A stretch of 60,318 nucleotides of DNA, from IMG/VR virus record IMGVR_UViG_3300043783_000122, positions 1 through 60,318 of that record; one strand, given 5' to 3'. The first letter of the stretch is position 1. Each line of letters starts with the position of its first letter. Below are positions 539 through 59,626 of the stretch, in pieces. The notes below the pieces were generated by a model that did no database searches, was not told the origin of the DNA, and worked only from the letters and a program-made list of their open reading frames with translations. The translations under genes were made by a program, and so were the position numbers. Source of the DNA: a virus (lineage: Duplodnaviria; Caudoviricetes).

Positions 539-828
539 TTTTCAGGTTCCTGTGGCCCAGGCGGTAGGGCATTAGTGTCCTTGGACTTGTCGGCGAGCTG
601 CTTTTGTAAGCCAGCAATCGTCTTTTGCGCCTGGGCAAACTGTGCCTCGGCGCTGGCCGCCTCGTCGAGCGCTCGGTTGCGCTGGGCTTGCAAGGCATTG
701 AGCACATGTTCCAGGAACGCCGGATTGGACCCCTGCGGGCCGGCCTGCTGCGCCAAGGATGGTAATATACAGCATAAAAGCCAAAATGATATTGTAAGTA
801 ATGTGCCAGCTATATTTAAGAATTGCAT
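535..828 (-). CDS. signal-peptide/TM coiled-coil protein (possible inner spanin or fibre accessory)
   Basis: Likely ATG at 828; MQFLNIAGTLLTISFWLLCCILPSLA|QQ followed by a coiled coil. Confidence 0.5.
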   Translation of the reverse strand: MQFLNIAGTLLTISFWLLCCILPSLAQQAGPQGSNPAFLEHVLNALQAQRNRALDEAASAEAQFAQAQKTIAGLQKQLADKSKDTNALPPGPQEPEK

Positions 829-2483
829 GTGCCACCTGTGAGAATCCCCAGAGTGAAGATCAGTGTTTTGGCCTGATTGACCGTGCAAGTCTGCGTGAGG
901 CCGGGATTGCCATTTATTCTGAACCCTGTGGTGGCCTCGATTGTTGTTGTGGCCTTGATCGAGGTATTAGTTAAAAGTGCGCCTGTGCCCGCATCAGTTG
1001 TCGTTCCTATCGACAGCCCACCGCTCGTATTGAACCGAGCGTTCTCTGAGTTATTGATAAAAAACTGTAGCGGGGTATTTCCAGATGTGCCAATAATAAG
1101 TGGCGCCGTACCGTTTGCGGTCAGAAAGCCTTTTCCCTGGTACACGCCAGTGAGATTTACGCCACCGAGACCTACAGTGACGTTGTTTGTGCCATTGCTG
1201 TACAACGCCTCGATGATCGTGGCGTTGCCGCCATTATTGTTTGCCAGCCCAGATTGCGTCGTGGCGTTCTGGTTATTAAGATTGGAAATAAAGAATGGAT
1301 TACCAAAATTGATCGGCGTGTCTCCCGTTAGCGTGAAGTTTGCGCAGTTGCAGAAATTGGCAATCGTGAGCGCCTGTTGAACGGTGATGGCATTGCCAGT
1401 CAAGGCAATAGCTGGCGCCAAATTGACCGGAGACCCAAACGAAAGACCGTTGAAGTATGCACCTGCGGCTGTCCCCACATTGTCAATTGCGATGGCGGCA
1501 TCAAAGCCGCTTGCCTCGGCGCCAGTGTCATTTGTCACCTCAATACCGTAACGATTAGTTGCGGTGCCGCTACCATAAAATCCAGTCTCACTTTGCAAGC
1601 CAACTAAGTCTGGGGTCGAGCCTCCAGTGTCTACGGCCGCGACAGCATCAATACCCAACAAAAATCCGTTAATACTCTTATTGGTATAGGCATTCCCGAT
1701 GACAGCAACCTTATCTCCCGCTGGGGTTCCACTGTTGACAACCATATGGAAAGCGCCAGCTACTGCAACCGTTGTTCCGCTGCTGTCATCTGATTCCACG
1801 TAAAGAGCGCGGCTTTCCGCGTTCAACATCCCATTGGTGAGAGTACTTGGCGCCGTCACTGAACTTGGGTTGGCAACGACGATATTGTTGTAGATCAATG
1901 GCCCGGTCGTCGGCGCAGACGGGCCGGTTTGGGTGACCGTAAATCCTTGATTGGTCGTGCCGGTAGTCGGATTGATCGTCAGCGGGCCTCCAGAGAGCGT
2001 GGCGAGCGATCCTGTTCCACCTGCTGTTGAACAGACCCAGAGATTAGCAGTTGCATTATAAAGAGGGAAGGCACCAGAGGTGGTGCAGAGCGCAGTTAGA
2101 ATACTCGTACCAGGGGCCGAAAGGTAGCCGGACCAGATAAGGTTGTTGAATTGGTCATACACGCTCTCGGCATAATTGCCCGAGCCGAAGATGAAGGCGG
2201 AACCAGCACTGTCTAGGACGACCGGATTGGCATTGGGAGTGTTCTGGAATGCATCCTGCCAAGTCGTCTTGGGGGTGAAGCTGCCAGGAACGCAGATGTT
2301 GTTCGTATTGGGCACGCAGAAATAGACGAAGCCCCCGACGAGCGGGGTGCCAGTGGCATCGAGGAACTGGGTCTTGGCGTTGGGCAAGATGCTGGCGGTC
2401 TGTGCGCTCAGGGGCGTAGCGAGTAGCAATGTGGCGAGGAGCGCCCAGAGCCCACGCGTTGTTCGTGCAACCTTGCCCATCAT
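816..2483 (-). CDS. tail fibre/tailspike with podoviral particle-binding N-terminal domain, preceded by a signal-peptide-like leader
   Basis: LPNAKTQFLDATGTPLVGGFVYF...PKTTWQD...NANPVVLDSAG...GSGNY resembles podovirus fibre attachment domains; G/N/T-rich beta-structured C-terminus; last large gene of the virion module; start 2480 or 2483 coupled to the upstream stop. Confidence 0.8.
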   Translation of the reverse strand: MMGKVARTTRGLWALLATLLLATPLSAQTASILPNAKTQFLDATGTPLVGGFVYFCVPNTNNICVPGSFTPKTTWQDAFQNTPNANPVVLDSAGSAFIFGSGNYAESVYDQFNNLIWSGYLSAPGTSILTALCTTSGAFPLYNATANLWVCSTAGGTGSLATLSGGPLTINPTTGTTNQGFTVTQTGPSAPTTGPLIYNNIVVANPSSVTAPSTLTNGMLNAESRALYVESDDSSGTTVAVAGAFHMVVNSGTPAGDKVAVIGNAYTNKSINGFLLGIDAVAAVDTGGSTPDLVGLQSETGFYGSGTATNRYGIEVTNDTGAEASGFDAAIAIDNVGTAAGAYFNGLSFGSPVNLAPAIALTGNAITVQQALTIANFCNCANFTLTGDTPINFGNPFFISNLNNQNATTQSGLANNNGGNATIIEALYSNGTNNVTVGLGGVNLTGVYQGKGFLTANGTAPLIIGTSGNTPLQFFINNSENARFNTSGGLSIGTTTDAGTGALLTNTSIKATTTIEATTGFRINGNPGLTQTCTVNQAKTLIFTLGILTGGTCNS

Positions 2484-4522
2484 TGGCTCCCTGTCAGCGC
2501 GTTCGCCCCACTCGGATCGATATTGGCGGGATTCAGCGGGACGACGATGCGCGTCCCAGCGTCTGACCCTGGCAGCCCCGCGTTGGCATCGCCCGACCAG
2601 CCGTGCCATGCGCCCCAGCCGTTGCGCAGCGCATGGTCGAGGGCGAAGTCGATTTGCGCTCGCGTCGTCGCGGGATCGCTCGCGTGCAGGCCGGTCGCTT
2701 TGGTGAACGCATCGCCCAGGCCGGGCACGGCGTTGCCCTTGCTCGTCCCCGGCATTCCGCCATAGTGAAGCTGGAAGGGGCCGAAGGAGCTTCCCTCGTC
2801 TCCGGCATATGCGCCGCCGAGGCCCTCGGAGCGCGCCACCTTGACCGCCACGTCGGGGTCGATCCCACGAGCGCCCGCAGCTTGGCGAATGTACGCCTCG
2901 GTCTCGGCCGTCTTCGGCGAGAATTCTGGATTATAATTCCTCGCCGCGCTGGCGAAGGGGATGATCGGATTGGCCACGAAGCCAGGGCCGCCGCGCAGGA
3001 GCATGTTCGTTCCGGTCTCGGTGTTCAAGAGCGCGCCGCCGAGAGAGTATGGAAGCGTCAACGCGCCAAGGCCGCTGGCGAGAATTGGATGATTCTCGGC
3101 CAGACCGGAGAGGAAGTTCCCCCCGTGCTCGCCCGCGAGGATGCCAATGCCCATGCCAGTCCCCGGCGTAATATGTGGCCCGGCGCTGAGGTTGCGAGAG
3201 AACTGGCTAGCTCCCCCGGCGAGCGTTCCGATGTCCACGGGATTTCCCGCATTCGCAGCAGTCTCACTAGCCTCGCCCGTCCCGCCGTAGTTCTGTTTGA
3301 CCAGACTGAAGAGCTTGGCCGGATTGGCGATGCCGGTCTCGTTGTCCTTGAGCTTGTCCGCAATGATGGCGTTGCGGTATTGATTCCTTGCGAGACGAAT
3401 ATTCGCCGCCTCATCTCCAGCGTTGCGCTCAAGCGCGTCGTCGAGCGAGGTGCGGAACTGATTAGCGTATTGGCCGAGTAGCGGATCGCGCTGGGCATTC
3501 GATAGGGCGCTTCCGCGCTGGGTCAAGTTCTGATAGACCGTGCCGTCGAGATTGCCCTGCTGGATCGCTCGATATATCGGCCCAGCCACGGCGGCCATCT
3601 GGCGATATTTCTCCGGCTGGCCAGCTAGGCCCTCGTGCGCTTGCTGGGCCGTGGCGCGGAACTCGTCGGAGAGCGTGCTGTCGCCAATGTGATACGGGAT
3701 TCGCTGGGCGCTTTGATTGAGCCTATCCCCCGCCGCGTCGAGCGCCGCACTGGTCGTCTCGTTATTCATAAGCTCCGCGTTCGAGCCTGTGGCGGCCATA
3801 ATTCGCCGCGTCAGCGCCTGCAAATCCGGATGAGCCATTCCGAGCACCTTGGCCATGATCCTCGCCGCAGGCGGGCTTCCGGGAATGTTCGCAGTGCGCA
3901 GCGGGACGCCCTGGGCCATATAGCGTCGGGCGAGCTCGGCTATCTCTGGCGAGATGGACGAACGCAGCGGAGCAGCCAGAACACTTATGGCACCACCAAT
4001 GGCGCCTCCGGTGAGCATGTTTCGTTCGAGGTTCTCCCGCATTTCGGGATCATAGAGTGCCGGTGTGGCGCTCTGCCATGTGCCACTGACGATGCCGCTG
4101 AGCGCACGAAGAGGCCACGCCCCGCCGCCAGCGCCGGTCAGCGCGGCACCAAGTTCGGGCGAGAGAGCACGAGCGCCTCGGCCGAGTGCCGTCGCAGCTA
4201 GGACGGCAGGTAGCACCTTGCCAGCGACAGCGGCGTTCCAAGCTTCGCCGGGGTGAGCTTGGGTCCACTCCGCTTTCGCCCGCGCCACGGCCGTCGAGTC
4301 ATGTGAGCCCGTCGCTCGTCCACTCGTCGCAGCATCGACGAAGTGGCGGCCAACGTCCCAGTCAGGTAGGGCCTCACCGCTCGACGTGACGGGCAAATCC
4401 TCGCTAGGGAGCTGCGTCAGTGCGTGATCGATCAGTCGCTGTGAGAATTCGTCCACCGGCTGACGGCCGCCGGAGATGTACTTCTTCACGAGGCCCTGGG
4501 AGAAGGCATCAACGTCGGGCAT
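2480..4522 (-). CDS. internal virion (DNA ejection) protein with C-terminal lytic transglycosylase/lysozyme-like domain
   Basis: 680 aa, A/G-rich helical; C-terminal YIRQAAGARGIDPDVAVKVARSEG...SSFGPFQLH...GWGAW fits a lysozyme-fold muralytic domain; position equivalent to P22 gp16. Confidence 0.75.
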   Translation of the reverse strand: MPDVDAFSQGLVKKYISGGRQPVDEFSQRLIDHALTQLPSEDLPVTSSGEALPDWDVGRHFVDAATSGRATGSHDSTAVARAKAEWTQAHPGEAWNAAVAGKVLPAVLAATALGRGARALSPELGAALTGAGGGAWPLRALSGIVSGTWQSATPALYDPEMRENLERNMLTGGAIGGAISVLAAPLRSSISPEIAELARRYMAQGVPLRTANIPGSPPAARIMAKVLGMAHPDLQALTRRIMAATGSNAELMNNETTSAALDAAGDRLNQSAQRIPYHIGDSTLSDEFRATAQQAHEGLAGQPEKYRQMAAVAGPIYRAIQQGNLDGTVYQNLTQRGSALSNAQRDPLLGQYANQFRTSLDDALERNAGDEAANIRLARNQYRNAIIADKLKDNETGIANPAKLFSLVKQNYGGTGEASETAANAGNPVDIGTLAGGASQFSRNLSAGPHITPGTGMGIGILAGEHGGNFLSGLAENHPILASGLGALTLPYSLGGALLNTETGTNMLLRGGPGFVANPIIPFASAARNYNPEFSPKTAETEAYIRQAAGARGIDPDVAVKVARSEGLGGAYAGDEGSSFGPFQLHYGGMPGTSKGNAVPGLGDAFTKATGLHASDPATTRAQIDFALDHALRNGWGAWHGWSGDANAGLPGSDAGTRIVVPLNPANIDPSGANALTGSQ

Positions 4523-5868
4523 TACTCTTTCCCCTCACGTTGTTCGAGATACTGGTTGAACGTCTTGGCCCAATCGTTCTGGACGTTCGACATGTCGTAG
4601 AAGCCGTGGTTCGCTTGGTCCTGGCGGCCCCGGAAGTGGTCGCTCTCCATGTTCGTCACGTGGGCCAGTTCCTTCATCGAGGTCAGAATCTTCGAGGTCG
4701 CACCGGGGTCGAGATCGATATTGGGTGCCCCCTCGGTCAGGGTCTTTCCCCATTCGGTCTGGGTCATTCTCCCGCCGCCAGCATGGATGAGCTGGGCCGC
4801 TATCTGCGACCCTATGCCGAACATCTGTTTCCGCGCTGCTTGGGCGGACGAGAAGTCGCCAGATGCAATGGCGTCCAGCGTAGCCTTAGGCATTCCGGCA
4901 GCTTGGGCGAGGCCAGCGAGCTCGACACGCATACTCTCTCCCCCGCCCTGGGTGAAATTCTTGAGATACCGCTGGGACTGTTGCATGGTCAAGAGGAGCT
5001 GGTTCGCACTATTCGTCCGCTCATTCACATCCTTGCCATAGTCGGCCGCAGCGTCGAGGGCCTTCTGGCGGAATGATCCTATGCCGGTCTGAGTAAGCTG
5101 TGGCTGTTGCGGTGCAGGCGCAACGCTGGGCGCTCCCCCGCCTGCGCTCTGGAACGGCCCAGCGCCCGGAGCGGTCGAGGTGGCGTTCGGCAGAGCGCCG
5201 GTGGGCGAGCCGACTCCCCCGCTGGGCACCGCGCTGCCCTGCATCTTGTTCACGAAGCCAGGGACGGGGTTACCATTGCCATCATGGAAGGCATCTGGCC
5301 GGTAGTCGATGTTTCCAGCGAGCTCGCCCCCTCGCAGCGAAGATTGCGCCAGTTGCTTCAGGTGGGAGTTTAGCTCCGGCCCCTTGAGACCAGAGATGCC
5401 AGCCATGTACGCCACGGCATCTGGGGCCTCGATGCCATGCGCGGCCATCAGTTCGGTCAGCTTCGACATCACGTCCTTTGGCGTGACGGTATCGCCCTTC
5501 TCTTGGGAGAGGCCATAGGCGGCCGAGCCGATTGCGCTCTGCTTCTTCGCGAAGTTGTCCAGGTTCGTCTTCATCGTCTCGGCCTGGATCAATTGCTTTT
5601 GGGCGAACTGGTTCAGAATATCCGGTGCCATGAAGGCCGTGTCGGGGTTCGTCGAGACGAGCAAGCCAGCCTTGTTATAGTCCATCTGCCCATCCGGGCC
5701 GACGGCCTGCTGCATGAGTGGGCCGAGCGCCTGCCTCGCGCGAAAGGTCTGCTGGAAGAGGGCGTTCTGGTTGAGCTGATTCTGCGCCCCGGCGAACTGG
5801 CCAACCATGCCGAGCAGATTCGGCGTATTCGTTCCCAGCGAGGCATATGGACTGACATCAACGGGCAT
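4522..5868 (-). CDS. internal virion/DNA ejection protein (P22 gp20-like position)
   Basis: 448 aa Q/A/G-rich helical protein in the ejection gene cluster. Confidence 0.65.
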   Translation of the reverse strand: MPVDVSPYASLGTNTPNLLGMVGQFAGAQNQLNQNALFQQTFRARQALGPLMQQAVGPDGQMDYNKAGLLVSTNPDTAFMAPDILNQFAQKQLIQAETMKTNLDNFAKKQSAIGSAAYGLSQEKGDTVTPKDVMSKLTELMAAHGIEAPDAVAYMAGISGLKGPELNSHLKQLAQSSLRGGELAGNIDYRPDAFHDGNGNPVPGFVNKMQGSAVPSGGVGSPTGALPNATSTAPGAGPFQSAGGGAPSVAPAPQQPQLTQTGIGSFRQKALDAAADYGKDVNERTNSANQLLLTMQQSQRYLKNFTQGGGESMRVELAGLAQAAGMPKATLDAIASGDFSSAQAARKQMFGIGSQIAAQLIHAGGGRMTQTEWGKTLTEGAPNIDLDPGATSKILTSMKELAHVTNMESDHFRGRQDQANHGFYDMSNVQNDWAKTFNQYLEQREGKE

Positions 5869-6209
5869 TAGACGAGTCCAATGTTGTTGGAGAGCGGGCT
5901 CGGCGCGGAGGATATGGTGCTCTGGGGCATGGAGGAGAAGAGCTGCGTTAGCATATTCGTGGCCCCGCCAGTAACGCCGCTCGGGGCCTGTGTGTTACCT
6001 GCGACTGGCTGCATCCCACCGACGACGCTGGGGGAGCCGGTGAGCGCATTCCCCTGGGTGTTCTGCCCGCCCAGGAGCGCGTTGCCGCCAACACCTGCGC
6101 TCGCCGTGCCCGTTCCGAAGAGCGAGGCTAGCCCGCCCGCGCCACCCTGGCCGCTGCCGAAGAGCTGGAGCAGATAGGGCATCAGCATTTGCAAGAGCTG
6201 GGGGTTCAC
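5868..6209 (-). CDS. small Gly-rich putative virion protein
   Basis: 113 aa, GTG start, G/A/N-rich, coupled to neighbours. Confidence 0.5.
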   Translation of the reverse strand: MNPQLLQMLMPYLLQLFGSGQGGAGGLASLFGTGTASAGVGGNALLGGQNTQGNALTGSPSVVGGMQPVAGNTQAPSGVTGGATNMLTQLFSSMPQSTISSAPSPLSNNIGLV

Positions 6210-6215
6210 AGCGGG

Positions 6216-6974
6216 CTAGCCTGTGGTGAACGGATTGTTCGTGTACGGCACTGCTGTTCCGCCCCACATTGGCCCGCTGGCCACAGCGCTCGGATTAGTG
6301 GCTCCGCCCCTACTCGCCAAGAGCTGCTGGATGAGCTGATACTGCATGGCCGTGCTGATACCACCCGTGAGCGCGTTCGCGCCGCCCGTCGCCGCACCAG
6401 CGATAGCGTTGCCGCCGCCAGTCAGAGCGTTCGAGATACCCTGGCCGGTCGAGATGGCACCTCCAGCGAGGGCACCAGCGGCGTTCGCCCCGGTCTGCAC
6501 GGGCTGGAAGAGCAGATTGGCGATCTGCTGGTTCTGGGTGAGGTAATTCGTAAGTTGCTGATTATACGTGCTCTGCGCCAGCCCGGTGGCGTAGCTCGCC
6601 GCGCCCTTCTCGGCGGCGCCGGAGCTTCCTAGGCCATTGGCGGCATACGAATTCTGGGTACTCTTCAGCCCCTGGTCCAGCGTGAACTGATACCCCGGCG
6701 TGCTTGCGAGCATACTCGCATCGAACGGCTTGGTGAGCGTCGGCAGCGCGGCATTATATGATGTAAGCGCGTTATCCCCCGCCGTGATATACGGATTGAG
6801 CTCATTCTGCGCGGTGTTGAACATCGCGAGCTGGGTCGCCTCGGCGCCCCCAGCGGCCTTGGTCTGCGCGCTAGCCCCGATGCCAGCAGAGAGCAGTCCC
6901 GCGCCTGCTGAGAGGCCGCCAAGGGCGAGGCTTCCGCCTGCGCCCAATGTTCCAGCTGCTGTTACGAATGGCAT
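6216..6974 (-). CDS. DNA ejection/pilot protein (P22 gp7-like)
   Basis: Gly/Ala-rich N-terminus and the conserved LNPYITAG...PGYQFTLDQG...NSYAANGLGSSG segment. Confidence 0.75.
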   Translation of the reverse strand: MPFVTAAGTLGAGGSLALGGLSAGAGLLSAGIGASAQTKAAGGAEATQLAMFNTAQNELNPYITAGDNALTSYNAALPTLTKPFDASMLASTPGYQFTLDQGLKSTQNSYAANGLGSSGAAEKGAASYATGLAQSTYNQQLTNYLTQNQQIANLLFQPVQTGANAAGALAGGAISTGQGISNALTGGGNAIAGAATGGANALTGGISTAMQYQLIQQLLASRGGATNPSAVASGPMWGGTAVPYTNNPFTTG

Positions 6975-18027: not shown

Positions 18028-19263
18028 TTAGATGACATCGGCTACAGCGCAAGCCCATTCGGGCCTTATCCAGAGATAGCCGTAGAGGACATCGAGCCGG
18101 GTGAGCAACTGATCCGTGCCCGGAATGTACGCCGTGAGCATCCGCATCGCCACCCCGTCGAATTCCTCCCTCGCCGCCTCCTCCACGCCCTTCGTCGGCA
18201 TGATGAGGTCGGCGGTGGCCATCGTCACGCCCTCGGGGGCGAAGAGGAAGTTCTTTCGATAGGCGACGCTGGCGGGGTTGACAAGCGTCACCGCTCCCGC
18301 ATTTGCGGGCGACACGTCCACGGTCTGGTACTGGACCGTGTTGGCGCCGACAGCGGGGATCAGCGCGGGATAGATCGAGACATTCGTGCCACCACCAGGG
18401 ACCGCCGCAGTCACGACGAACTGGCGAAGCTGCGAGCTGGCCTGCTTGGTGATCCGGTTGACCATATGCACGCCAGCGAAGGTGATGATGTCACCCACGT
18501 TGAGCGTGCCAGTGCCAGTGTTGATGAGAATGTTCAGCCCGGTCTGGCCAGCGCCGTTCACGAGATAGCCCGCGGCCGAACCTCCGGTATGCGTGAGGAC
18601 CGTCTGGTCCATGTACCAGTCGCCGCCGAGGGTGTCGCTGGCCATCTTGCCAGTCTTGTACTGCTCGCCGATCTTCTGCTGCGGGTTGAACAGTCCCGAC
18701 AGCGAAGAGACCGTGCGAGACTCCGTGATCGGATCGAGGATGAACTTCCAGTCGCCCATGGGGGCGGAGTTCTGCTTGAGGTACGCGCCGGCTTGCAGCC
18801 ACGTCTGCGCCACGGGCGAGATGAGGTTGCCGGCTCCGTCGCTGTTCTGCACATAGTTGCAGATTCCCGCTCCGTTCGTGCCGCCAGTATCGACGCCAGA
18901 CATCACGTCCGCCGCGACGTTGCCCGCGAGATTGTTCACCATAGGGGCCAGGACGCGGCGGGAGAAGTCGTCGAGGCTCATCGTGCGATCGACAGTGTTG
19001 AACGAGACATCGACGCCCTTTTGCGTAGCGAGCACCAGCGTAGTGTTCTGCTCCGCCGTGTCCTGGACGGACGCTGCAGGCCCCGTTCGCACCGTGAAGT
19101 CGTTCGGCAGACGAATTCGCAGCGAGGTGCCGATCTTGGCACCCGTCTTCGCGAAGTTGTCGTCGTACTGCATATCCAGGTGCTGGATGAATGCGTTGCT
19201 GTTCTTCCAGAGGCGAACGGCCTCTCGGGTAATCATGTTGATAGTGAGAAGACTGTTGGCCAC
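18028..19263 (-). CDS. major capsid protein (P22 coat protein family, HK97 fold)
   Basis: MANSLLTINMITREA...GAKIG..LRIRLPND...GDIITFAGV..VN...LRQFVV...RLDVLYGY..IRPEWAC. Confidence 0.95.
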   Translation of the reverse strand: MANSLLTINMITREAVRLWKNSNAFIQHLDMQYDDNFAKTGAKIGTSLRIRLPNDFTVRTGPAASVQDTAEQNTTLVLATQKGVDVSFNTVDRTMSLDDFSRRVLAPMVNNLAGNVAADVMSGVDTGGTNGAGICNYVQNSDGAGNLISPVAQTWLQAGAYLKQNSAPMGDWKFILDPITESRTVSSLSGLFNPQQKIGEQYKTGKMASDTLGGDWYMDQTVLTHTGGSAAGYLVNGAGQTGLNILINTGTGTLNVGDIITFAGVHMVNRITKQASSQLRQFVVTAAVPGGGTNVSIYPALIPAVGANTVQYQTVDVSPANAGAVTLVNPASVAYRKNFLFAPEGVTMATADLIMPTKGVEEAAREEFDGVAMRMLTAYIPGTDQLLTRLDVLYGYLWIRPEWACAVADVI

Positions 19264-27932: not shown

Positions 27933-28235
27933 CTAGCCTCGCTTCTGGTTGAGGAGCGAGATCGCCCCTCGCAAGTGATTCGGCCCTGGGGGCGTCTCCT
28001 TGCCCCGTGGTTCGCCACTGACGATCTCCTCGATCATCGGCCGCTTGGCGTGGAATTCCTCCTTGTACACCGGCTCCTCACCAGCAATCTTGCGAGAATG
28101 CGTGGAGACATAGCCGTTTGCAATCCTGCGCACGTCCACCGAGCAGTACTCCGGCCCATCCTCGTCCGGCGCAGGGGCTCCCCCGCCCGCTAGCACGCTG
28201 GCGCTGGTCGCCATCTTTCCGCTTCGCTTGGCCAT
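27933..28235 (-). CDS. hypothetical protein
   Basis: 100 aa, GGAGG RBS, SVDVRRIANGY motif. Confidence 0.6.
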   Translation of the reverse strand: MAKRSGKMATSASVLAGGGAPAPDEDGPEYCSVDVRRIANGYVSTHSRKIAGEEPVYKEEFHAKRPMIEEIVSGEPRGKETPPGPNHLRGAISLLNQKRG

Positions 28236-28334
28236 GAAGATGCCTCCAATGATTGGGAATAGTGAGCTCGTAGGGGCGCGTCTAGAGTCAATGTATCGCG
28301 TGGGGCGTGGAACGTGCGACGTGGCCCCCGTGGG

Positions 28335-28808
28335 CTAGATTGGCCCTTGGCCGATCCAGTGCAGCACTGGCACCCTCGACGTGGAGAGCTTGAGCGCGGT
28401 GTCCAGCGTCGAGCATATCGTCGCGAGTTGCGGGCAGCGATGCACGGACTTCGTGATGATGATGCCCCTGACTGGCACCCGATAGACGGCGCGCAGGATG
28501 GGGAAATACAGATCGAGCAACTGCTCCGTCGCCTGCTCCACGTTGGTGAGCTTGCACTCTAGCACGATAATCTCTAGAGCGTGCCACATGACGAAATCGG
28601 GCTGACAGTAGCCGAACTTCCCGTCGGCCATATATTCATACCACGGCCCGATCTCGATGTTCGGCGCGCGACGAGCGAGGGCCTTCGCGACCTTGCGCTC
28701 ATACGCGAGCCCCAGGCCCTTCGTGCCCCTGGGCCGCGAGCGCGGAATGCACGCCGGCCGAGCGACGGGCTTGGCCCATTCGACGTGCTCAACGCGGCGA
28801 TGTGGCAT
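28335..28808 (-). CDS. PD-(D/E)XK endonuclease (resolvase-like)
   Basis: GLAYERKV...CQPDF...IVLECKLT...QL..LY catalytic pattern; ATG 28808. Confidence 0.7.
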   Translation of the reverse strand: MPHRRVEHVEWAKPVARPACIPRSRPRGTKGLGLAYERKVAKALARRAPNIEIGPWYEYMADGKFGYCQPDFVMWHALEIIVLECKLTNVEQATEQLLDLYFPILRAVYRVPVRGIIITKSVHRCPQLATICSTLDTALKLSTSRVPVLHWIGQGPI

Positions 28809-29029
28809 CAGTGGAGCGTACCATTGTGTGAGTGCAGAGTCTCCAAGCCAAACGACAGCTTCGGCCGAAGGAGCGAGAATTCTGGTGAGACCCGCTCGGC
28901 CAGGGTGATCTTCGCCCGAATCGTCTCGGCGCGAAGGCCGCTCTTGTACGCGTGCAGCTCCTTGACCCACTTCGGCGCCCGAACGAACCAGGGCACATTG
29001 CCACTAGCACGTTTCACAGTATCGGTCAT
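28808..29029 (-). CDS. hypothetical protein
   Basis: 73 aa, GAGGAGG RBS, coupled to neighbours. Confidence 0.45.
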   Translation of the reverse strand: MTDTVKRASGNVPWFVRAPKWVKELHAYKSGLRAETIRAKITLAERVSPEFSLLRPKLSFGLETLHSHNGTLH

Positions 29030-29669
29030 ACTTCCTCCTCACAAACCTATCACACACGTCCGAGGCGTTAACGTCCCCCGCGACGAGCGAGCAATCATGG
29101 GGGGCTCGGAACATCGTGCAGAGCGCGCACTTGCGGCTCGCGACCCCCAGTCCGTAGCTGACCTTGGCCTTGGGGAGCTTCCCGTGCTGGAGGTCATAAA
29201 GGTATCCCTTGAGCTTCCCGGAGTACGGCGAGAGATCGAGGTCCGGGGGACAGGATAGGATTTTCTCGTGCTCAATAGGTTTATAAAGCGGTCGAAGAAG
29301 CGCACGGTACTCGGCAGGAGTGTGACCGAGGGTACGACAATAGTCATCCTCGGCCGCCGTTGCGAGGTGGTGGCGGAATTCGTACTCGCGATGCCAGGGC
29401 TTGAGCGACCACTCGACGATCTCGTGAAGCGCCACGAGCGTCCGGCACCACGGCTCATCCCTCGTCCCCGCGATGAGCGTGGGGTCGAAATAGACGTGCT
29501 CGCCAGAGAGAGATGATCCTGCGAGGTATGGGACCTCGTACTTGAAGATATACTTGCGCGAGCGCGAGATTCTCGTCCTGAGCTCCCCGTGCTCATGGAT
29601 GAGTTCCCTGAGCCTTTCGAGCGAGCCTTCGGGCGGCTCGTCGTCGTAGATGCTGTCGCCAGAGCTCAT
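29004..29669 (-). CDS. zincin-like (HExxE) domain fused to a HiPIP-like four-Cys domain
   Basis: VPYLAG.S..G..VYFD...LHEIVE...HHLATAAE; C-terminal KAKVSY....C..C.MF....C.LV.G.V.....C..F. Confidence 0.55.
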   Translation of the reverse strand: MSSGDSIYDDEPPEGSLERLRELIHEHGELRTRISRSRKYIFKYEVPYLAGSSLSGEHVYFDPTLIAGTRDEPWCRTLVALHEIVEWSLKPWHREYEFRHHLATAAEDDYCRTLGHTPAEYRALLRPLYKPIEHEKILSCPPDLDLSPYSGKLKGYLYDLQHGKLPKAKVSYGLGVASRKCALCTMFRAPHDCSLVAGDVNASDVCDRFVRRKYDRYCETC

Positions 29670-29748
29670 CTCGTTCCCACTGCGGGCGGGCGAAGGAAAG
29701 CAGGAGCGCTCTCCAAGGCCACGCCAGTATCATGCGGAACGTGCGCAA

Positions 29749-30093
29749 TTAGAAGATCGAAGACTGCGCGTTCACCGTGGTCTCGACCGCGGCGATCAGC
29801 TGGGCGATCTTGAGCGGATCGGTCGTCGCACGGAGGCTTTCGAGGAGCGGAAGCACGGTGCTCGGGAGCCCATTGATCGTCTCAATCTTCGTGATGATCG
29901 CCGGGCCGCTCGCCGCCAGGGCGGCCGGATTGTTCACCAGCGCCATCAGTTGCGTCAAGTCCTGGTTGACCTGATTGGCCACGCTGCCGGTCATGGTGCC
30001 GGCGACGGACGCCAGTACGCTCGTGGCCTGCGTTCCCGTGATGCCAGAGCTGTTGAGTGCTCCGACCAACGCCGAGAAGATATTCTGTCCCAT
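29749..30093 (-). CDS. hypothetical helical protein
   Basis: ATG 30093 with AAGGAG RBS; 114 aa. Confidence 0.6.
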   Translation of the reverse strand: MGQNIFSALVGALNSSGITGTQATSVLASVAGTMTGSVANQVNQDLTQLMALVNNPAALAASGPAIITKIETINGLPSTVLPLLESLRATTDPLKIAQLIAAVETTVNAQSSIF

Positions 30094-30143
30094 CTTTATC
30101 GCTCCTTGGTTGTGTCGGAGAATTATGGAAAGGTCTGACACTG

Positions 30144-30371
30144 TTACCTCACCATGAAGTCGTTGGGGAGTCTGATACGCATTGTCTGTCCTATCTTGGC
30201 TCCAGCACTTGCGAACTCGCTATCGTAAGTGGTGAAAGCCACATCTACACTTCGTTGAGTTGCAATGGTCTTGATTGCCTTCGGGGCTGCTACTGGCGCA
30301 GCCTTCCAGCCGCCGGCGAGGAGTCCAGCAAGACCACCAAGGAAACCTCGCCGGGCTAATTGCATCGTCAT
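30144..30371 (-). CDS. Tat-signal protein made of permuted major-capsid segments
   Basis: ARRGFLGGLAGLLA twin-arginine leader; C-terminal 27 aa match MCP residues 33-59 at 19/27; ATGA coupling to the upstream gene. Confidence 0.65.
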   Translation of the reverse strand: MTMQLARRGFLGGLAGLLAGGWKAAPVAAPKAIKTIATQRSVDVAFTTYDSEFASAGAKIGQTMRIRLPNDFMVR

Positions 30372-30685
30372 CCTGCCAGAAAGTCTGGATTGGGCACCTG
30401 TCCGACGCTACCATCGGCGAGATACCCGTCAATGAACTGCGGCTGGTGCATCTTCCACGAGGCCGTGCCCGCGTGCGCCGGCCCCACACGGGAGATGTCC
30501 TCAATGAGCTTATCGAACGCCGGGTGTAGCGCCTGCACGGCCACGACGACGGCCGGTTCAGCGTCGGCGAGGGAGCCCGCGAGCCCGATCCAGTCGGCGA
30601 GCGAGAGCCCGCCGAGCACGGCGCCGATCGAGCCCCCAGAAATGAGCCCCGAGATGACCGGAATGAGTGCGAGAAGAGCGCCCAT
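30368..30685 (-). CDS. membrane protein in the lysis region
   Basis: Hydrophobic Gly-rich N-terminal half. Confidence 0.55.
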   Translation of the reverse strand: MGALLALIPVISGLISGGSIGAVLGGLSLADWIGLAGSLADAEPAVVVAVQALHPAFDKLIEDISRVGPAHAGTASWKMHQPQFIDGYLADGSVGQVPNPDFLAG

Positions 30686-30867
30686 CAGTTCGCTCCCTTT
30701 ATACGTGCGGCCAGGATGGCATTCTCAATCATAAGCGCAAGCGCCCAACGAGAAGAGAATGTAATGCTAGCATCGCCTACATTAAATGGCAGCAAGATTT
30801 GCCCGGCTCCTGGCCCGTAGATTATGCTCATAGTTTCTTTCGAGACCTTCGGCGCTTCCTCGCCCAT
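30685..30867 (-). CDS. small hypothetical protein
   Basis: 60 aa from ATG 30867; TGATG coupling at both ends. Confidence 0.45.
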   Translation of the reverse strand: MGEEAPKVSKETMSIIYGPGAGQILLPFNVGDASITFSSRWALALMIENAILAARIKGAN

Positions 30868-31316
30868 CAGCCTTGCCCCGGACGATAGGTGTCGGCCTGC
30901 GGGGGCGCTGGAGCCGCCGAACTGACCTGTGCCGCCACCAGCGAGCCAGCGACGACCACGGTCGGACTGGGAATGGCTTTGGCGAGTGCCTTGCCGGCCT
31001 CGGACTGATCCGTAATGACCCCCTTGACCTCGGGAATGGCATCGACCACCTCGGTCGCATACTTCTTCGTATGAACGTAGAGGCCCCAGATGAGCGTGGG
31101 GAGGGTCAGAATAGCCCAAACCGCAGCGTTCATGAACTCGGGAGAGTTCAAGAGCGCCATGATGGTCTTGGCATCAGCCCAACCCTTGCCCGCGACGAAG
31201 CCGGCGATGCCAGCCCCGAACGTTGTGACGAACCAAGAGACTGCGCTCTTCGCCTGCTCGGCGTTCGGAACGATGGTGATGCCGCTTGGCTTCGATGCGC
31301 TATTATCCGGGCTCAC
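30867..31316 (-). CDS. putative holin
   Basis: Two hydrophobic helices; directly downstream of the endolysin. Confidence 0.6.
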   Translation of the reverse strand: MSPDNSASKPSGITIVPNAEQAKSAVSWFVTTFGAGIAGFVAGKGWADAKTIMALLNSPEFMNAAVWAILTLPTLIWGLYVHTKKYATEVVDAIPEVKGVITDQSEAGKALAKAIPSPTVVVAGSLVAAQVSSAAPAPPQADTYRPGQG

Positions 31317-32218
31317 TTTTCGTCCTCCTTGACGGCCAAGATGGCCTCTATTGCCGCGCGGCCGAGCACGTTGGCCATCTTCGCGCTCGCGCCCGAGGGA
31401 ATAACTAGACCCATCTCGGCCAGACCGGCGGCGAGGCTATGGACCCCGTTCGCCAGAATGGCCTGGATCGCCGTCGTGGCCGCGTCGAGCTGGCGGTCGT
31501 GGAGGCTGGGTGCGTTCGCGACCCTCGCAGCGATCTGCATTTGGGCTTCCTCGATGCTCTTTGCGCTTGGCGCGCTTGATGCGGCTATCTGAGCGTCAGA
31601 GAAGGGAATGAACTGGCCCCAATCCTCGCCATTGGGCGTGTCGATGTCACAATCGACGCCAGCGACCTTCGTGGGAAGCCCCTGGTGGAGGACCCATTTC
31701 TTGCTGGCGAGGAATTCGGCCGAGCCTAGCCACTTCCCCGGCGCGGCGAGCCAGGCGAGGTTCGCATATCCCGCCGCGAGGGCCGCGTTGCAGACCGCGC
31801 CGCTTGCATACACCCCCACGCGGGCTTTGAACGCGCTGGCATCGAAGGCTACTCGAATGGCCTTGAAGTACGGCATCACAAGCGACATGATTTGCGTCGT
31901 GCTGGCATCGGTATCGACGGCGAAATAGACGCAGGGGTTCCCCACGCCAATCGTCCCGAGCTCGCGCAGGGCGGCCAAGGCGTGCTGAGCGTCGCGCGTC
32001 CCGGCCGCCGCTGAGATGTCCCCATGGGCGAAGTCGCCCCAGCCCTCGCTCACGAGGGTGAGCGACATACGTGCGTCCGCGATGGCCTTCGTCCGTGCTG
32101 GCGTGATGACTTTCGACGTAGTGCCGTGCGGATTGAGATACCCTATGATGTCCGTCACCCCGGCCTTGGCGAGGGCGGGGAGATGCGCGGTCACATCGAC
32201 GTTCACATCAATTATCAT
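31313..32218 (-). CDS. endolysin, DUF1906/GH25-like glycoside hydrolase
   Basis: IID...GY...VSE...GTRDA...VYFAVDTD...VGVYASG.VC...WL...W...Q...DCDID. Confidence 0.8.
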   Translation of the reverse strand: MIIDVNVDVTAHLPALAKAGVTDIIGYLNPHGTTSKVITPARTKAIADARMSLTLVSEGWGDFAHGDISAAAGTRDAQHALAALRELGTIGVGNPCVYFAVDTDASTTQIMSLVMPYFKAIRVAFDASAFKARVGVYASGAVCNAALAAGYANLAWLAAPGKWLGSAEFLASKKWVLHQGLPTKVAGVDCDIDTPNGEDWGQFIPFSDAQIAASSAPSAKSIEEAQMQIAARVANAPSLHDRQLDAATTAIQAILANGVHSLAAGLAEMGLVIPSGASAKMANVLGRAAIEAILAVKEDEK

Positions 32219-32372
32219 TTTCCTCGTCCTCTTCCTCGTCCTCAGGCGCCCGCACCGCATACGCTCCGAGCGCCACAAGCTCCCGCACGACCCGCTCATT
32301 TTCCTGCCTCCGCGAGGCAGCCTCGACCCGGCGGATATTGGCCTGTCGTTCGAAATAGGCGAAGAGGCCCAT
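32208..32372 (-). CDS. small acidic-tailed hypothetical protein
   Basis: MGLFAYFERQANIRRVEAASRRQENERVVRELVALGAYAVRAPEDEEEDEENDN*, coupled on both sides. Confidence 0.45.
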   Translation of the reverse strand: MGLFAYFERQANIRRVEAASRRQENERVVRELVALGAYAVRAPEDEEEDEENDN

Positions 32373-32989
32373 CAGCGCTTGTCCTCAATGATGCTCGCCT
32401 CGACCACCGTGGCCTCGACCGTGCGCTCCTTGGCCGGGACGAAGTTAATGGAGACGTTCAGGCCGGACGAGGGGGCGCCGTTGCGCTGGCCGCCCCTTGC
32501 TGGCGCCGCCGAGCGGTCCATCGTGGCCTCCAGGATGCCCTTCAGGTCGTTGTTGGTGAACTTCTCGGGAGATTCCTCTAGTCGCTGCTGGAGAATCTCC
32601 AGCGCCGTGAGCCCGCTCGTGACGAGGCGATCGTAGACGTTGTGATCACGTTTCTCCTGCTGGGTGGCGTAGTACGCGAGGAGCTCGCGAAACGCGGGAT
32701 CGCCCCGGAGCGCCGTGATGCCTGTGACGCTGCGGCCAGTGATGAAGCTGGCCTCGGCGTCCTCGACCCCAGCAGCGAGTAACTGCGCTAGTTGATGATG
32801 CCCCGTGCGCAGCACGGTGATAACACTGGCCGCCCCGGTGCCCTTCGACCAGTTGTGCTCGCGGAGCTCTTGGAGCAATATGGGCACGTCGAGCGCCACG
32901 ATCTCGCGCAGAACCTCGCAGGGTTCCTCGCGACGTGGCGAGGCTGCGAGGGCGAGGCTTTCGAGGAGCTCTAGAGACTGTTCGCTCAT
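32372..32989 (-). CDS. putative terminase small subunit (HTH)
   Basis: LR..HH.LA.LLAAG....EAS.ITG.S...I..L..DPAF.ELL HTH-like region, helical core, C-terminal NVSINFV strand. Confidence 0.5.
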   Translation of the reverse strand: MSEQSLELLESLALAASPRREEPCEVLREIVALDVPILLQELREHNWSKGTGAASVITVLRTGHHQLAQLLAAGVEDAEASFITGRSVTGITALRGDPAFRELLAYYATQQEKRDHNVYDRLVTSGLTALEILQQRLEESPEKFTNNDLKGILEATMDRSAAPARGGQRNGAPSSGLNVSINFVPAKERTVEATVVEASIIEDKR

Positions 32990-33116
32990 CTGGGAGTATC
33001 ATACCTGCAGAGTGTCACGGCGAGAGACTGCTGTCTCGCCTCGCTATACGTTCTTGCAGGCTTCCACTTCCGCGAGCGGTTCAATCGACCAATAGCGCGC
33101 CTGCGTGACTGTTTCA

Positions 33117-44414: not shown

Positions 44415-44721
44415 AGTCGGGCAGAAGGTGGTCTGTGTCGATGCAGAGACGCTCTTTCCGCATAGACTAGGAACTGGGTCATTCCAGATCGATGAGGCGC
44501 TAGTCAATGGCGCGATTTATACAGTAAGACGAGATTTCATTGACCATGAAGGTGATCGTATTCTCTGGCTGGAGGAGGTCAAACGTAACGAGCGCGCAAA
44601 GACATTCTGGGGTCCAGATGCTGGATATGGCGCTTGGCGCTTCCGCCCCCTCGTCGAGCGCAAAACGTCAATCGAAATCTTCGAGCGCATGTTGACGCCG
44701 GACTTGGAGCGGGTGAGATGA
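44407..44721 (+). CDS. small SH3-like phage protein
   Basis: MFRVGQKVVCVD...G.IYTVR...L.L.EV...RFRPL.ERKT.I. Confidence 0.65.
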   Translation: MFRVGQKVVCVDAETLFPHRLGTGSFQIDEALVNGAIYTVRRDFIDHEGDRILWLEEVKRNERAKTFWGPDAGYGAWRFRPLVERKTSIEIFERMLTPDLERVR

Positions 44722-45300
44722 GGGCACCAGGGTCTCGGACGAGGATGGATGCCCTTCGTGCGGAGCTAGCGCAAGTCTGGCTCGCCCCGCACTTCGACGC
44801 CCAGCGCGCGGCTAGCATCTATGCAGCGCTCGCCTGCGAGCTCCATGTCCTCGGCCGCCGGCCGCAGTACGACATCGGGCGACAGGGTTTCCAGTTCAAG
44901 CGAAGGAGCGAACGCCTTGGGCGCCGCTGAGCAGGACATGATCTATTCAGCCGCTCGCGCCACGTTCGGCCTAGTCGTCCGTGGGGACGCCAAACGCTTG
45001 CGCGCCGCTCGCACCGTGCTAGTGGCGAGCGATGCTAGCCTCGTCGATCTAGCGGTGTTGGGACCTGATAGGAGCGGCCAAGTCTGGCTCGTCCGGAAGG
45101 ATGCCCTCAGGCGACATCTGTTGAGTGATGCAATATGAAACGAGGAATGCGAAAGGTAATACCACTCTGCCCGCTTCAAATACCGCTAAGACAGTATCTC
45201 GTTAACCGCGAGTATATCTTGCTATCGCAGATAGTTGCAATCAAGGCGGCTATAATACGGGCAGAGCAGGAGTTGCAAACTATAGATAAGATGAGGCAAA

Positions 45301-58852: not shown

Positions 58853-59626
58853 GTGATTCAGCTCGAACATGATGGCCTGTGCTGTCGGTGGCTTTACGAT
58901 TATGATATAGCCACCGACAGCATGCTCACGCGTTTCGACGCGATTATGGGCCAGCAGCTTCGCGAGAATCGGTTCAATCATATTACACCGGAGATAATTA
59001 TCTTCGCCCTGGAGCACTACGCAGCGCAGATCGAGGAAGTCAAACGACGAGCGAGAGCCGAGCCGGGGCTCCAGTTCTCCTATAACTTTCATATAACGCA
59101 CCATGAGATCATTCGCGCACAAGAGAGGCCAAGGCATCTTGATGTTCTCTACGACCATATGCACTTTAGGCCAGAGTGGCTCGTCTATCACGAGGGCGCA
59201 AACAGCTCGTATGCCGATCGAGCCAGGGCGGAGGCTAAGAGTATCGAGCTGCTCAAGTCCTGGCTAGACCCAACTCAGCTGCGAGACTATAAAAGCCACC
59301 GGCACTTCACTGTGCGAGGTAGCGACACGGGGAAGTTTTATCGTCTGGTCGGAGAGAGGAGCTACAATATCCTCGAACTTGGAGGCTCCTCGATGGAGCC
59401 CAATGGGAACAAGTTCTGCGTCGTTCCGCGTGATAGCGTAGCCATGGGAGACCAGCTCCTGGCGCAGAAAATCTGGCTGGAGACGGACGAGGCTAGAACG
59501 CTCGCGATAGCGAATAAGGTCGCTAGGGGCGGCAATGGACAACTCTTGCAACATATCACGCGGGAGGTGATAGAGATGTTTCAGAACAGTAATGTGTTTC
59601 TTCGAAATCTCCGAGACCACGAATGA
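58853..59626 (+). CDS. partner of the GG-terminated protein; hypothetical
   Basis: LL.SWL...Q......F.V.GS.TG..YR.....N..E....FC..P....GD.LLAQK..LE.DE...LA.AN. Confidence 0.7.
   Translation: MIQLEHDGLCCRWLYDYDIATDSMLTRFDAIMGQQLRENRFNHITPEIIIFALEHYAAQIEEVKRRARAEPGLQFSYNFHITHHEIIRAQERPRHLDVLYDHMHFRPEWLVYHEGANSSYADRARAEAKSIELLKSWLDPTQLRDYKSHRHFTVRGSDTGKFYRLVGERSYNILELGGSSMEPNGNKFCVVPRDSVAMGDQLLAQKIWLETDEARTLAIANKVARGGNGQLLQHITREVIEMFQNSNVFLRNLRDHE

What the first reader, a model, noticed from the sequence alone, without database searches (positions are those of the whole stretch)
30144..30371. Tat-signal mini-protein built from two capsid segments in swapped order
Seen: after a twin-arginine leader (ARRGFLGGLAGLLAGG), residues 36-48 IATQRSVDVAFTT match MCP 78-90 LATQKGVDVSFNT (8/13), and residues 49-75 YDSEFASAGAKIGQTMRIRLPNDFMVR match MCP 33-59 YDDNFAKTGAKIGTSLRIRLPNDFTVR (19/27). 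The order is reversed relative to MCP (19167-19087 and 19032-18994), codons are diverged and the frame is intact, suggesting protein-level selection. Inference: these segments flank the HK97-fold E-loop, so the product may be an envelope-targeted capsid mimic: a decoy for capsid-sensing defences (CapRel-like), a tether linking capsids to the membrane or Tat system, or an inhibitor of competing capsid assembly.
Basis: partly seen in the sequence, partly recalled or inferred. Interest (0 to 1): 0.9.

Follow-up and report, generated by a model that had tools for sequence, protein, structure and literature searches.

The report
Export-leader mini-gene copying phage coat pieces
A 60-kb uncultured phage carries a tiny extra gene that joins a twin-arginine export-type leader to two rearranged pieces of a phage shell protein; it is an odd member of a large phage gene family that I found in no paper, and its job is untested.

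Summary
ORF 30144-30371 (-) encodes 75 aa. It starts with an RRGFL leader, and two in-frame pieces match the phage's own P22-type coat in swapped order: coat 75-92, then coat 31-59.

The ORF is an insertion. The syntenic sister phage has 11 nt at this slot, but carries a different leader-plus-coat gene at a slot that is empty here. GC3 of the ORF is 0.53, against 0.75-0.82 in neighbouring genes. Synonymous sites against the resident coat are saturated. So it came in as a unit and is not a fresh copy of the resident coat.

No protein with the same build was found. It does fit a large family. I found 76 leader-plus-coat-N-arm proteins. The conserved leader occurs on 119 small viral ORFs with varied cargo, including capsid, portal and fibre pieces.

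The ORF lacks the second half of the family leader and the N-arm.

Best reading: a real accessory gene sent to the Tat system or inner membrane, displaying a coat E-loop-base mimic. Its function is untested. A decayed family member remains a serious rival.

This scan noted the family before on other DNA.

The parts
30144..30371 (-). Mini-ORF, 75 aa plus TAA stop. The first ATG overlaps the stop of the upstream gene (ATGA). The stop lies 2 nt before the GTG start of the downstream gene.
30363..30365 (-). Second ATG (Met3), the more likely start. AGGA lies 5 nt upstream, and the product then begins M-x-L-x-RRGFL like the family consensus.
   Evidence: Sequence read. The leader HMM aligns from mini residue 3. 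In the family, Met-to-RR distance is most often 3-4 residues.
30267..30362 (-). Twin-arginine-type leader and linker (residues 4-35). It holds the RRGFLGGL motif, a Gly/Ala/Leu hydrophobic stretch and then AAP..AAPKAIKT. The second half of the family leader (SLMPV) is missing, and no clear AxA cleavage site is present.
   Evidence: TIGR01409 and PF10518 give no hit.
30222..30275 (-). Residues 33-50. A copy of coat 75-92 (descending E-loop strand and start of the P-domain).
30147..30233 (-). Residues 47-75. A copy of coat 31-59 (F-loop region and ascending E-loop strand). The last codons also carry the GGTGAGG ribosome-binding site of the next gene.
30368..30685 (-). Upstream 105-aa membrane-type gene. 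It is conserved in the sister phage (64% identity).
29749..30141 (-). Downstream 130-aa gene. It is conserved in the sister phage (80% identity) and in 24 database proteins.
18028..19263 (-). Resident P22-type major coat gene. Segments 19087-19167 (residues 33-59) and 18994-19032 (residues 78-90) are the counterparts of the mini-ORF pieces.

Best explanation
The ORF is a real, horizontally acquired accessory gene ('moron') of the late leftward operon. It sits between the lysis genes and the terminase genes.

It belongs, as a divergent minimal member, to a family of small proteins that is far commoner in viral than in bacterial records. In this family a conserved twin-arginine (Tat)-type leader is fused to fragments of virion proteins.

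Inferred mechanism:
- The RRGFL leader takes the 73-75-residue product to the host Tat translocon and inner membrane.
- No good signal-peptidase site is visible, so it probably stays anchored by the leader.
- It then exposes about 40 residues made of the two strands that form the base of the coat E-loop, joined base-to-base instead of through the loop tip.
- This acts as a mimic of a conserved coat surface in the envelope.
- My best guess at the benefit is interference with another phage: exclusion, or capture of a partner that normally binds that coat surface.

Shown: the ORF, its two coat matches, its status as an insertion, its foreign composition, and its partial family membership.
Inferred: expression, export, topology and any binding.
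For: (1) Both ends look like family gene ends, not random break points.
- The N-terminus from Met3 aligns to positions 1-17 of a leader HMM built without it. It is the best hit among 1,036 ORFs of the two phages (E 2.9e-4).
- RR+2..+7 = G-F-L-G-G-L fits the family frequencies (G 46, F 70, L 71, G 12, G 92, L 84 of 116).
- It ends 6 residues after RIRLP. 14 of the 70 family proteins with that motif end within 8 residues of it.

(2) The packing is operon-like. There is an ATGA overlap upstream, a 2-nt gap downstream, and a retained ribosome-binding site for the next gene.

(3) GC3 is low in both halves: leader 0.57 and coat part 0.50, against 0.75-0.82 in neighbours. Only 3% of 1,526 75-codon windows in 24 long ORFs of the window, taken as genes, are as low. 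The gene therefore arrived as one unit.

(4) Such genes are gained and lost whole in this phage group. The sister phage has 11 nt at this slot. It carries a 196-aa RR-leader plus coat-piece gene between orthologues that are 6 nt apart in the window.

(5) The family is real.
- 76 of the 131 proteins examined have leader plus coat N-arm and first strand.
- The leader DNA pattern hits 116 viral stretches, and all 119 ORFs have an N-terminal RR. The 596-Gb genome collection gives 21 stretches, about 8 of them genuine.
- Cargo includes P22-type coat (8 of 116), GP7 capsid (3 of 113), and Gp23 capsid, portal, tail collar, LamG and pectate-lyase-like domains (1 of 113 each).

(6) 28 of the 76 relatives carry a C-terminal hydrophobic stretch plus RRFW-type tail. 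With an N-terminal RR leader this predicts a periplasm-facing middle part.
Against: - No protein with the same build was found. Only the window's own protein appears among 5.8 billion clusters. In 1.84 billion representatives the only hits at E<=0.001 are coat fragments, leader-plus-coat proteins of a different build, and one 3,247-aa protein (P0027) that I did not inspect. Phages whose flanking gene is 90-95% identical contribute no called homologue. I could not fetch their contigs.
- The ORF lacks the two most conserved family features. The leader's second half (present in 70 of 76) and the coat N-arm (present in all 76, though the query profile enforced that) are both missing.
- Its coat piece resembles true coats more than family cargo: mean 17.7/27 identical to 55 coat fragments, against 13.3/27 to 76 leader proteins. 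That fits a recent capture or a scar.
- Tat models do not reach any threshold on this ORF.
- The ESM Atlas model is poor (pLDDT 0.41).
- Its codon usage is atypical for this phage.
- There are no expression data.
Confidence: 0.5

Rival explanations
1. Non-functional remnant. A family gene, or a foreign coat fragment fused to a leader, was rearranged during illegitimate recombination and is now drifting. The open frame and coat-like residues are inherited, not maintained.
For: - It is a singleton in all protein searches.
- It is missing the SLMPV half of the leader and the N-arm.
- The junction shares Y/V-D with both coat segments, as expected for a microhomology join.
- GC3 is foreign.
- It is more coat-like than family-like.
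- It is absent from the complete sister genome.
Against: - Both termini match family gene ends.
- The packing is tight, with a usable ribosome-binding site.
- There is no stop or frameshift in 75 codons. By my own estimate, chance gives an open frame of this length at this GC roughly 7% of the time.
- The whole unit has uniform composition.
Confidence: 0.3
2. Assembly interference or hitchhiker export. The coat-like hairpin binds full-length coat of this or a competing phage in the cytoplasm. Through the Tat leader it then tethers or removes that coat, poisoning capsid assembly of a rival.
For: - The cargo in the family is largely subunit-contact parts of virion proteins, such as the coat N-arm and E-loop strands and a tail collar domain.
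- The cargo here is diverged from the resident coat and nearest to a foreign one.
- Tat is known to carry folded complexes. This point is recalled knowledge and comes from no call.
Against: - The matched segment is highly conserved among coats, so the phage's own assembly would be hit too.
- No result here bears on binding.
Confidence: 0.1
3. Cytoplasmic decoy for a capsid-sensing defence (CapRel- or Lit-like).
For: The copied segment is one of the most conserved parts of this coat family. Coat fragments from many phages share 17-22 of its 27 residues. That makes it a plausible sensor epitope.
Against: - An export or membrane leader removes the product from the cytoplasm.
- A coat epitope would be expected to trigger such a sensor, not block it.
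- 28 of 76 relatives have a second membrane-type segment.
- No defence gene was linked to these loci. No neighbour cluster occurs in more than 7 of 103 loci.
Confidence: 0.05
4. Assembly chimera or an RNA element rather than a gene.
For: The composition differs from the flanks.
Against: - The insert is bounded exactly by a stop and a start and keeps operon punctuation.
- Rfam gives no hit at E<=1.
- The RNA fold is no better than shuffles (z -0.03).
Confidence: 0.03

Closest known systems
Bacterial twin-arginine (Tat) signal peptides (TIGR01409, PF10518)
   Same: - N-terminal position.
- An A-RR-G-F-L motif close to the recalled consensus S/T-R-R-x-F-L-K.
- A moderately hydrophobic Gly/Ala/Leu stretch after it.
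- 7 of 113 family proteins match PF10518 at E<=0.01.
   Different: - This ORF reaches no Tat model threshold and has no clear AxA site.
- The family leader is conserved far beyond a generic signal (AAPAIVRA-SSLMPV).
- The family leader is much commoner in viral than in bacterial records.
P22-type major coat protein (Pfam PF11651; P22 gp5, CUS-3 coat 8skg)
   Same: Two segments, about 45 residues in all, are homologous to the coat F-loop/E-loop base. The resident coat matches PF11651 and 8skg.
   Different: - Only about a tenth of the fold is present.
- The order is swapped.
- The N-arm, spine helix, A-domain and I-domain are absent.
- Pfam does not recognise it. It cannot form a shell subunit.
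The leader-plus-coat-N-arm mini-proteins found here (such as P0028, P0031, P0041) and noted earlier by this scan
   Same: - The first half of the leader.
- The coat 31-59 piece.
- An end a few residues after RIRLP.
- Small size, and phage origin of the loci I could inspect.
   Different: - It lacks the N-arm and the SLMPV half of the leader.
- It has coat 75-92 in front instead; none of the 76 has that arrangement.
- It has no C-terminal anchor.
T4 internal proteins with a shared capsid-targeting leader and variable cargo (recalled knowledge, not tested here)
   Same: The genetic logic is the same: one conserved short N-terminal leader on many fast-changing small cargoes, sometimes several genes side by side. 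L089 has three leader genes.
   Different: The leader type is different (hydrophobic, RR motif). There is no sign of a prohead protease site and no evidence of packaging into heads.
Small phage envelope proteins that exclude other phages (Sie-type; review PMC11436027, seen in the search listing only)
   Same: They are small, phage-encoded, envelope-directed accessory genes with high turnover.
   Different: None of those that I can recall is built from virion-protein fragments. No exclusion was tested here.

Membership tests
Tat signal peptide (TIGR01409 / PF10518) | Twin-arginine motif near the N-terminus followed by F-L | tested here: met
   Residues 7-11 are RRGFL. This fits the family column frequencies.
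Tat signal peptide (TIGR01409 / PF10518) | Score above the curated cut-off of the profile models | tested here: not met
   No TIGR01409 hit at E<=1. No PF10518 hit at E<=10.
Tat signal peptide (TIGR01409 / PF10518) | Small residues at -3 and -1 (AxA) for signal peptidase | tested here: inconclusive
   Read by eye only. The candidate sites have Pro at +1 or at -3. No SignalP or TatP was on hand.
Tat signal peptide (TIGR01409 / PF10518) | Tat-dependent export | not testable with these tools
   Needs reporter fusions in wild-type and tat-deficient hosts.
Phage leader family (RRxFLxGL...AAPAIVRAxSLMPV plus small cargo) | First half of the leader (M-x-L-x-RRGFLxGLxxLxA) at the N-terminus | tested here: met
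   The leader HMM built without this ORF gives E 2.9e-4, the best of 1,036 ORFs, over model positions 1-17.
Phage leader family (RRxFLxGL...AAPAIVRAxSLMPV plus small cargo) | Second half of the leader (AAPAIVRA-SSLMPV) | tested here: not met
   The HMM alignment stops at position 17. Only AAP..AI remains by eye. 70 of 76 relatives have this half.
Phage leader family (RRxFLxGL...AAPAIVRAxSLMPV plus small cargo) | Small size, with cargo taken from a virion protein | tested here: met
   75 aa, against a family median of 94. The cargo is coat pieces.
Coat-cargo subfamily (leader plus coat N-arm plus first E-loop strand) | Coat N-arm helix (ITREAVRLF.NSN.F) | tested here: not met
   No coat 3-30 match. 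All 76 relatives have it, but the search profile required it.
Coat-cargo subfamily (leader plus coat N-arm plus first E-loop strand) | GAKIG..LRIRLPNDF strand near the C-terminus | tested here: met
   Coat 31-59 at residues 47-75 (E 5e-12). The ORF ends 6 residues after RIRLP.
P22-type coat protein (PF11651) | Full HK97-type fold of about 400 residues recognised by the profile | tested here: not met
   No PF11651 hit. Only two short segments match.

The most novel reading that the evidence does not exclude
Many phages of Proteobacteria share one conserved Tat-type leader as a general delivery tag. It sends fragments of virion proteins (coat, portal, fibre, spike) into the host envelope. There the fragments act as structural mimics that block or capture parts of rival phages, or drag the rivals' subunits out of the cytoplasm by hitchhiking on Tat. 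On this reading the window's ORF is the smallest version yet: a circularly re-joined E-loop-base hairpin taken from a foreign coat. Module order in the family is free because only the three-dimensional surface is selected.
Probability: 0.2. Interest if true: 0.85.

Novelty: new variant of a known kind. Interest (0 to 1): 0.6.

Why it matters
If the family works as mimics, it would be a new way for phages to reuse their own structural parts outside the virion, probably in phage-phage competition. It would also give a use to hundreds of tiny 'hypothetical' phage genes. The conserved leader is a simple search handle for them: 119 ORFs came from one DNA pattern. It would also be a natural Tat tag with a wide range of small cargoes.

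For this ORF alone the value is smaller. It shows that such genes move as units between phages and that coat modules can be reordered. But it is a singleton that may already be decaying.

Tried and rejected
- **Orthologue hunt.**
  - The search for homologous proteins at near length found only the window's own protein.
  - The search for related loci in viral contigs with the mini-protein found no relative.
  - tblastn against phage records hit only coat genes.
  - blastn of 28000-33000 against phage records found no match.
- **Context of close relatives.**
  - The metagenome scan gave one 1,391-bp contig that starts at the flanking gene, so it shows nothing upstream.
  - The first genome-contig scan found nothing.
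- **Sequencing runs.** None was listed and no RNA holder was listed.
- **Complex prediction.** Complex prediction of coat with mini residues 30-75 gave no verdict (score 0.00, controls not run).
- **Structure.**
  - The AF2 model of the coat from a 9-row alignment was unusable (mean pLDDT 35), so I ran no fold search.
  - hhalign of the coat alignment to P22 gp5 aligned only the C-terminal half.
  - phmmer against the PDB likewise matched only the C-terminal half.
- **ESM Atlas.** No lead. The best feature score was 0.78 and the Atlas's own model has pLDDT 0.41.
- **Family libraries.** Pfam, PHROGs and NCBIfam give nothing for the ORF. The one exception is a chance-level Pfam match to the haemagglutinin fusion-peptide region (E 0.16).
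- **Signals around the ORF.**
  - No promoter-like or terminator-like site lies next to it.
  - No flanking repeats or bracketing hairpins were found. The only notable inverted repeat lies inside the leader coding region.
  - Rfam gave no hit, and the RNA fold has z -0.03.
- **Dedicated partner gene.** I clustered 2,164 neighbour ORFs of 103 loci. No cluster occurs in more than 7 loci.
- **'Lower-GC moron' as a family rule.** Only a small shift was seen (mean GC3 difference -0.03, n 92, Wilcoxon p 0.005). The window's -0.25 is special to this ORF.
- **Literature.** Five searches listed no paper on leader-plus-virion-fragment proteins. I saw only listings and abstracts, apart from passages of PMC9965877. 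Supplements were not consulted.

Full report
**Setting.**
The window is a whole IMG/VR virus record of 60,318 bp, rated complete by CheckV. Its leftward arm carries these genes:
- a DPBB lytic-transglycosylase-like gene;
- an Rv2525c-type endolysin (31313-32299);
- two membrane-type genes (149 aa and 105 aa);
- the mini-ORF;
- three unknown genes (130, 221 and 211 aa) and a fourth of 449 aa;
- the large terminase, a P22-type portal, a likely scaffold and a P22-type coat.

The rightward arm carries replication genes. I saw no integrase among the 34 proteins scanned against Pfam.

**Observation.**
The ORF at 30144-30371 (-) encodes 75 aa. BLASTP against the coat gives two matches:
- residues 49-75 = coat 33-59, 19/27 identical, E 4e-12;
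- residues 36-50 = coat 78-92, 9/15 identical, E 5e-4.

An HMM of three full-length coats confirms both, with the order swapped (E 5e-12 and 4e-5). At the DNA level identity is 53/81 and 25/39. Synonymous sites are saturated (pS 0.80) and pN is 0.21.

A rough alignment to P22 gp5, read against the published domain limits (PMC9965877, passages), puts the two pieces on either side of the E-loop. I treat this placement as approximate.

**It is an insertion that came from elsewhere.**
- A syntenic phage (IMGVR_UViG_3300048818_000149; 60,064 bp, terminal repeats, 50-80% protein identity along the genome) has the 105-aa gene's stop, then 11 nt, then the 130-aa gene's start. It has no match to the mini-protein anywhere except in its coat.
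- GC3 of the mini-ORF is 0.53 (leader 0.57, coat part 0.50). Its five neighbours have 0.75-0.80 and the coat has 0.82.
- Only 3% of 1,526 75-codon windows in 24 long ORFs of the window, taken as genes, are that low.
- The best match to its 27-residue coat piece is a coat fragment of another phage (P0081, 22/27), not the resident coat (19/27).

So the ORF is not a recent copy of the resident coat. Leader and coat part seem to have arrived together.

**The sister phage has its own version elsewhere.**
- At G001 44425-45015 (-) lies a 196-aa ORF. It starts with MKRR and a hydrophobic stretch, and it holds coat 348-398 (E 1e-13) and coat 32-46.
- Its flanking genes have orthologues in the window (5868-6209 and 6216-6974) that are only 6 nt apart.
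- The window has no match to this 196-aa protein outside its coat.
- Its leader is Tat-like by eye only. My family leader HMM does not match it (E 8).

Each phage thus holds one lineage-specific leader-plus-coat-piece gene, at different slots.

**Relatives of the same build.**
No same-length homologue exists in 5.8 billion clusters. The scan of 1.84 billion representatives gave 18 hits at E<=0.001. One is the ORF itself, most are coat N-terminal fragments, and one (P0027, 3,247 aa) I did not inspect. Three (P0028, P0031, P0041) begin with an RRGF leader and then carry coat pieces.

A profile of those three plus the ORF found 310 proteins at E<=0.001 among 8,000 scored candidates, and 120 were listed. 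I examined 131 proteins: those 120, less the ORF itself and five already in hand, plus the 17.
- 76 have RR within the first 30 residues and 55 do not; most of those 55 look like plain coat fragments.
- All 76 carry coat residues from about 3 to about 56. The profile enforced that.
- About 12 of the 76 carry further or reordered coat pieces: spine-helix start before the N-arm (P0041, P0045, P0085); C-terminal hairpin before the N-arm (P0064, P0067, P0106); first strand before the N-arm (P0119, P0125); C-terminal hairpin after the strand (P0123, P0128); and a piece near coat 244-271 (P0041, P0092).
- None has coat 75-92 in front of coat 31-59.
- 28 of the 76 end in a hydrophobic stretch plus RRFW-type tail.
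- 70 of the 76 have the second half of the leader.
- 14 of the 70 with the RIRLP strand end within 8 residues of it.

**The leader is a tag found almost only in viral records.**
I back-translated AAPA(I/V)V...(S/T)LMP and scanned two collections.
- In viral contigs, 116 stretches matched. All 119 matches lie near the start of a small ORF with RR upstream. RR was not part of the pattern.
- In genome contigs (596 Gb), only 21 stretches matched. Ten have an upstream RR and about 8 look genuine. Those are mostly Proteobacteria MAGs; the one isolate-genome match (Labrys miyagiensis) was not genuine.

The 116 unique proteins have a median length of 94 aa. Residues around RR fit the Tat motif: S/N/T before it, then G/S, F/L, L/I, T, G, L after it.

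The cargo is varied.
- 8 of 116 have a P22-type coat piece.
- Pfam on 113 of them gives TAT_signal 7 and GP7 capsid 3. Gp23 capsid, Head-tail_con (portal), Collar, Laminin_G_3 and pectate-lyase-like each match once. The rest are unassigned.
- No conserved neighbour gene exists; no cluster occurs in more than 7 of 103 loci.

**Where the ORF fits.**
- From Met3 it aligns to leader HMM positions 1-17 (E 2.9e-4, best of 1,036 ORFs). AGGA lies 5 nt before that ATG.
- The leader's second half is replaced by GGWKAAPVAAPKAIKT, and the N-arm by the coat 75-92 piece.
- It is therefore a partial member: family-like at both ends and different in the middle.
- Its coat piece is more like real coats than like family cargo.

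**Reading.**
I put about 0.5 on a real accessory gene whose product goes to the Tat system or inner membrane and shows a small coat-surface mimic. I put about 0.3 on a decaying remnant. The rest goes to the other rivals.

Export, topology, binding and benefit are all inferred. The envelope location is argued from two things: the match to the Tat motif, and the two membrane-type ends of 28 relatives. The positive-inside rule (general knowledge) would place their middle part in the periplasm of the mostly proteobacterial hosts.

**Known or new.**
Five literature searches listed nothing on this design. Earlier notes of this scan describe the same family on other DNA. I re-derived its main features independently. 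The parts (Tat-type signal, coat fold) are known; the combination and its spread are not in the papers I could search.

I rate the finding a new variant. The reason is that this particular ORF is a divergent, possibly decaying member, and no function is shown.

Noticed in passing
window 58853-59626 (+): A 257-aa ORF after the DUF3987 primase-helicase gene holds three in-frame coat-like pieces and has no RR leader. The pieces are coat 369-400, coat 391-406 and, near its end, the N-arm 9-29. The sister phage has a 294-aa orthologue (53% identity) with clearer matches: coat 3-35 (E 1e-11), coat 378-406 (E 5e-8) and a RVRLP strand.
   Followed up: partly
L007 1471-2061 (-) = sister phage G001 44425-45015: A 196-aa ORF with an MKRR hydrophobic leader and coat pieces 32-46 and 348-398. 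It is inserted between genes that are adjacent in the window. The family leader HMM does not match its leader.
   Followed up: partly
P0044, P0048-P0051, P0061 and others (28 of 76 proteins): Many leader-plus-coat proteins end in an Ala/Val-rich hydrophobic stretch followed by (S/T)RRFW. This looks like a C-terminal membrane anchor and gives them two membrane-type ends.
   Followed up: partly
L089 1243-3673 (IMGVR_UViG_3300021432_000009): Three leader genes lie within 2.5 kb, two of them abutting. One carries coat 3-61. Its neighbour carries the coat C-terminal hairpin and then the spine-helix start.
   Followed up: no
window 816-2609 (-): A 597-aa gene at the tail end of the late arm has GC3 0.58, against about 0.76 elsewhere, and only 44% identity to an 842-aa sister gene. 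It is probably an exchanged fibre or spike gene.
   Followed up: no
window 29749-30141 (-): Database relatives of the 130-aa gene are called either as about 130 aa or as 114 aa, starting at the internal Met17 behind a strong AAGGAG. The first 16 codons differ from the sister phage mostly by synonymous changes, so the long form is probably real.
   Followed up: partly
window 30313-30354: A 14-nt inverted repeat (86% complementary, 14-nt loop) lies inside the leader coding part of the mini-ORF. The region as a whole folds no better than shuffled sequence.
   Followed up: partly
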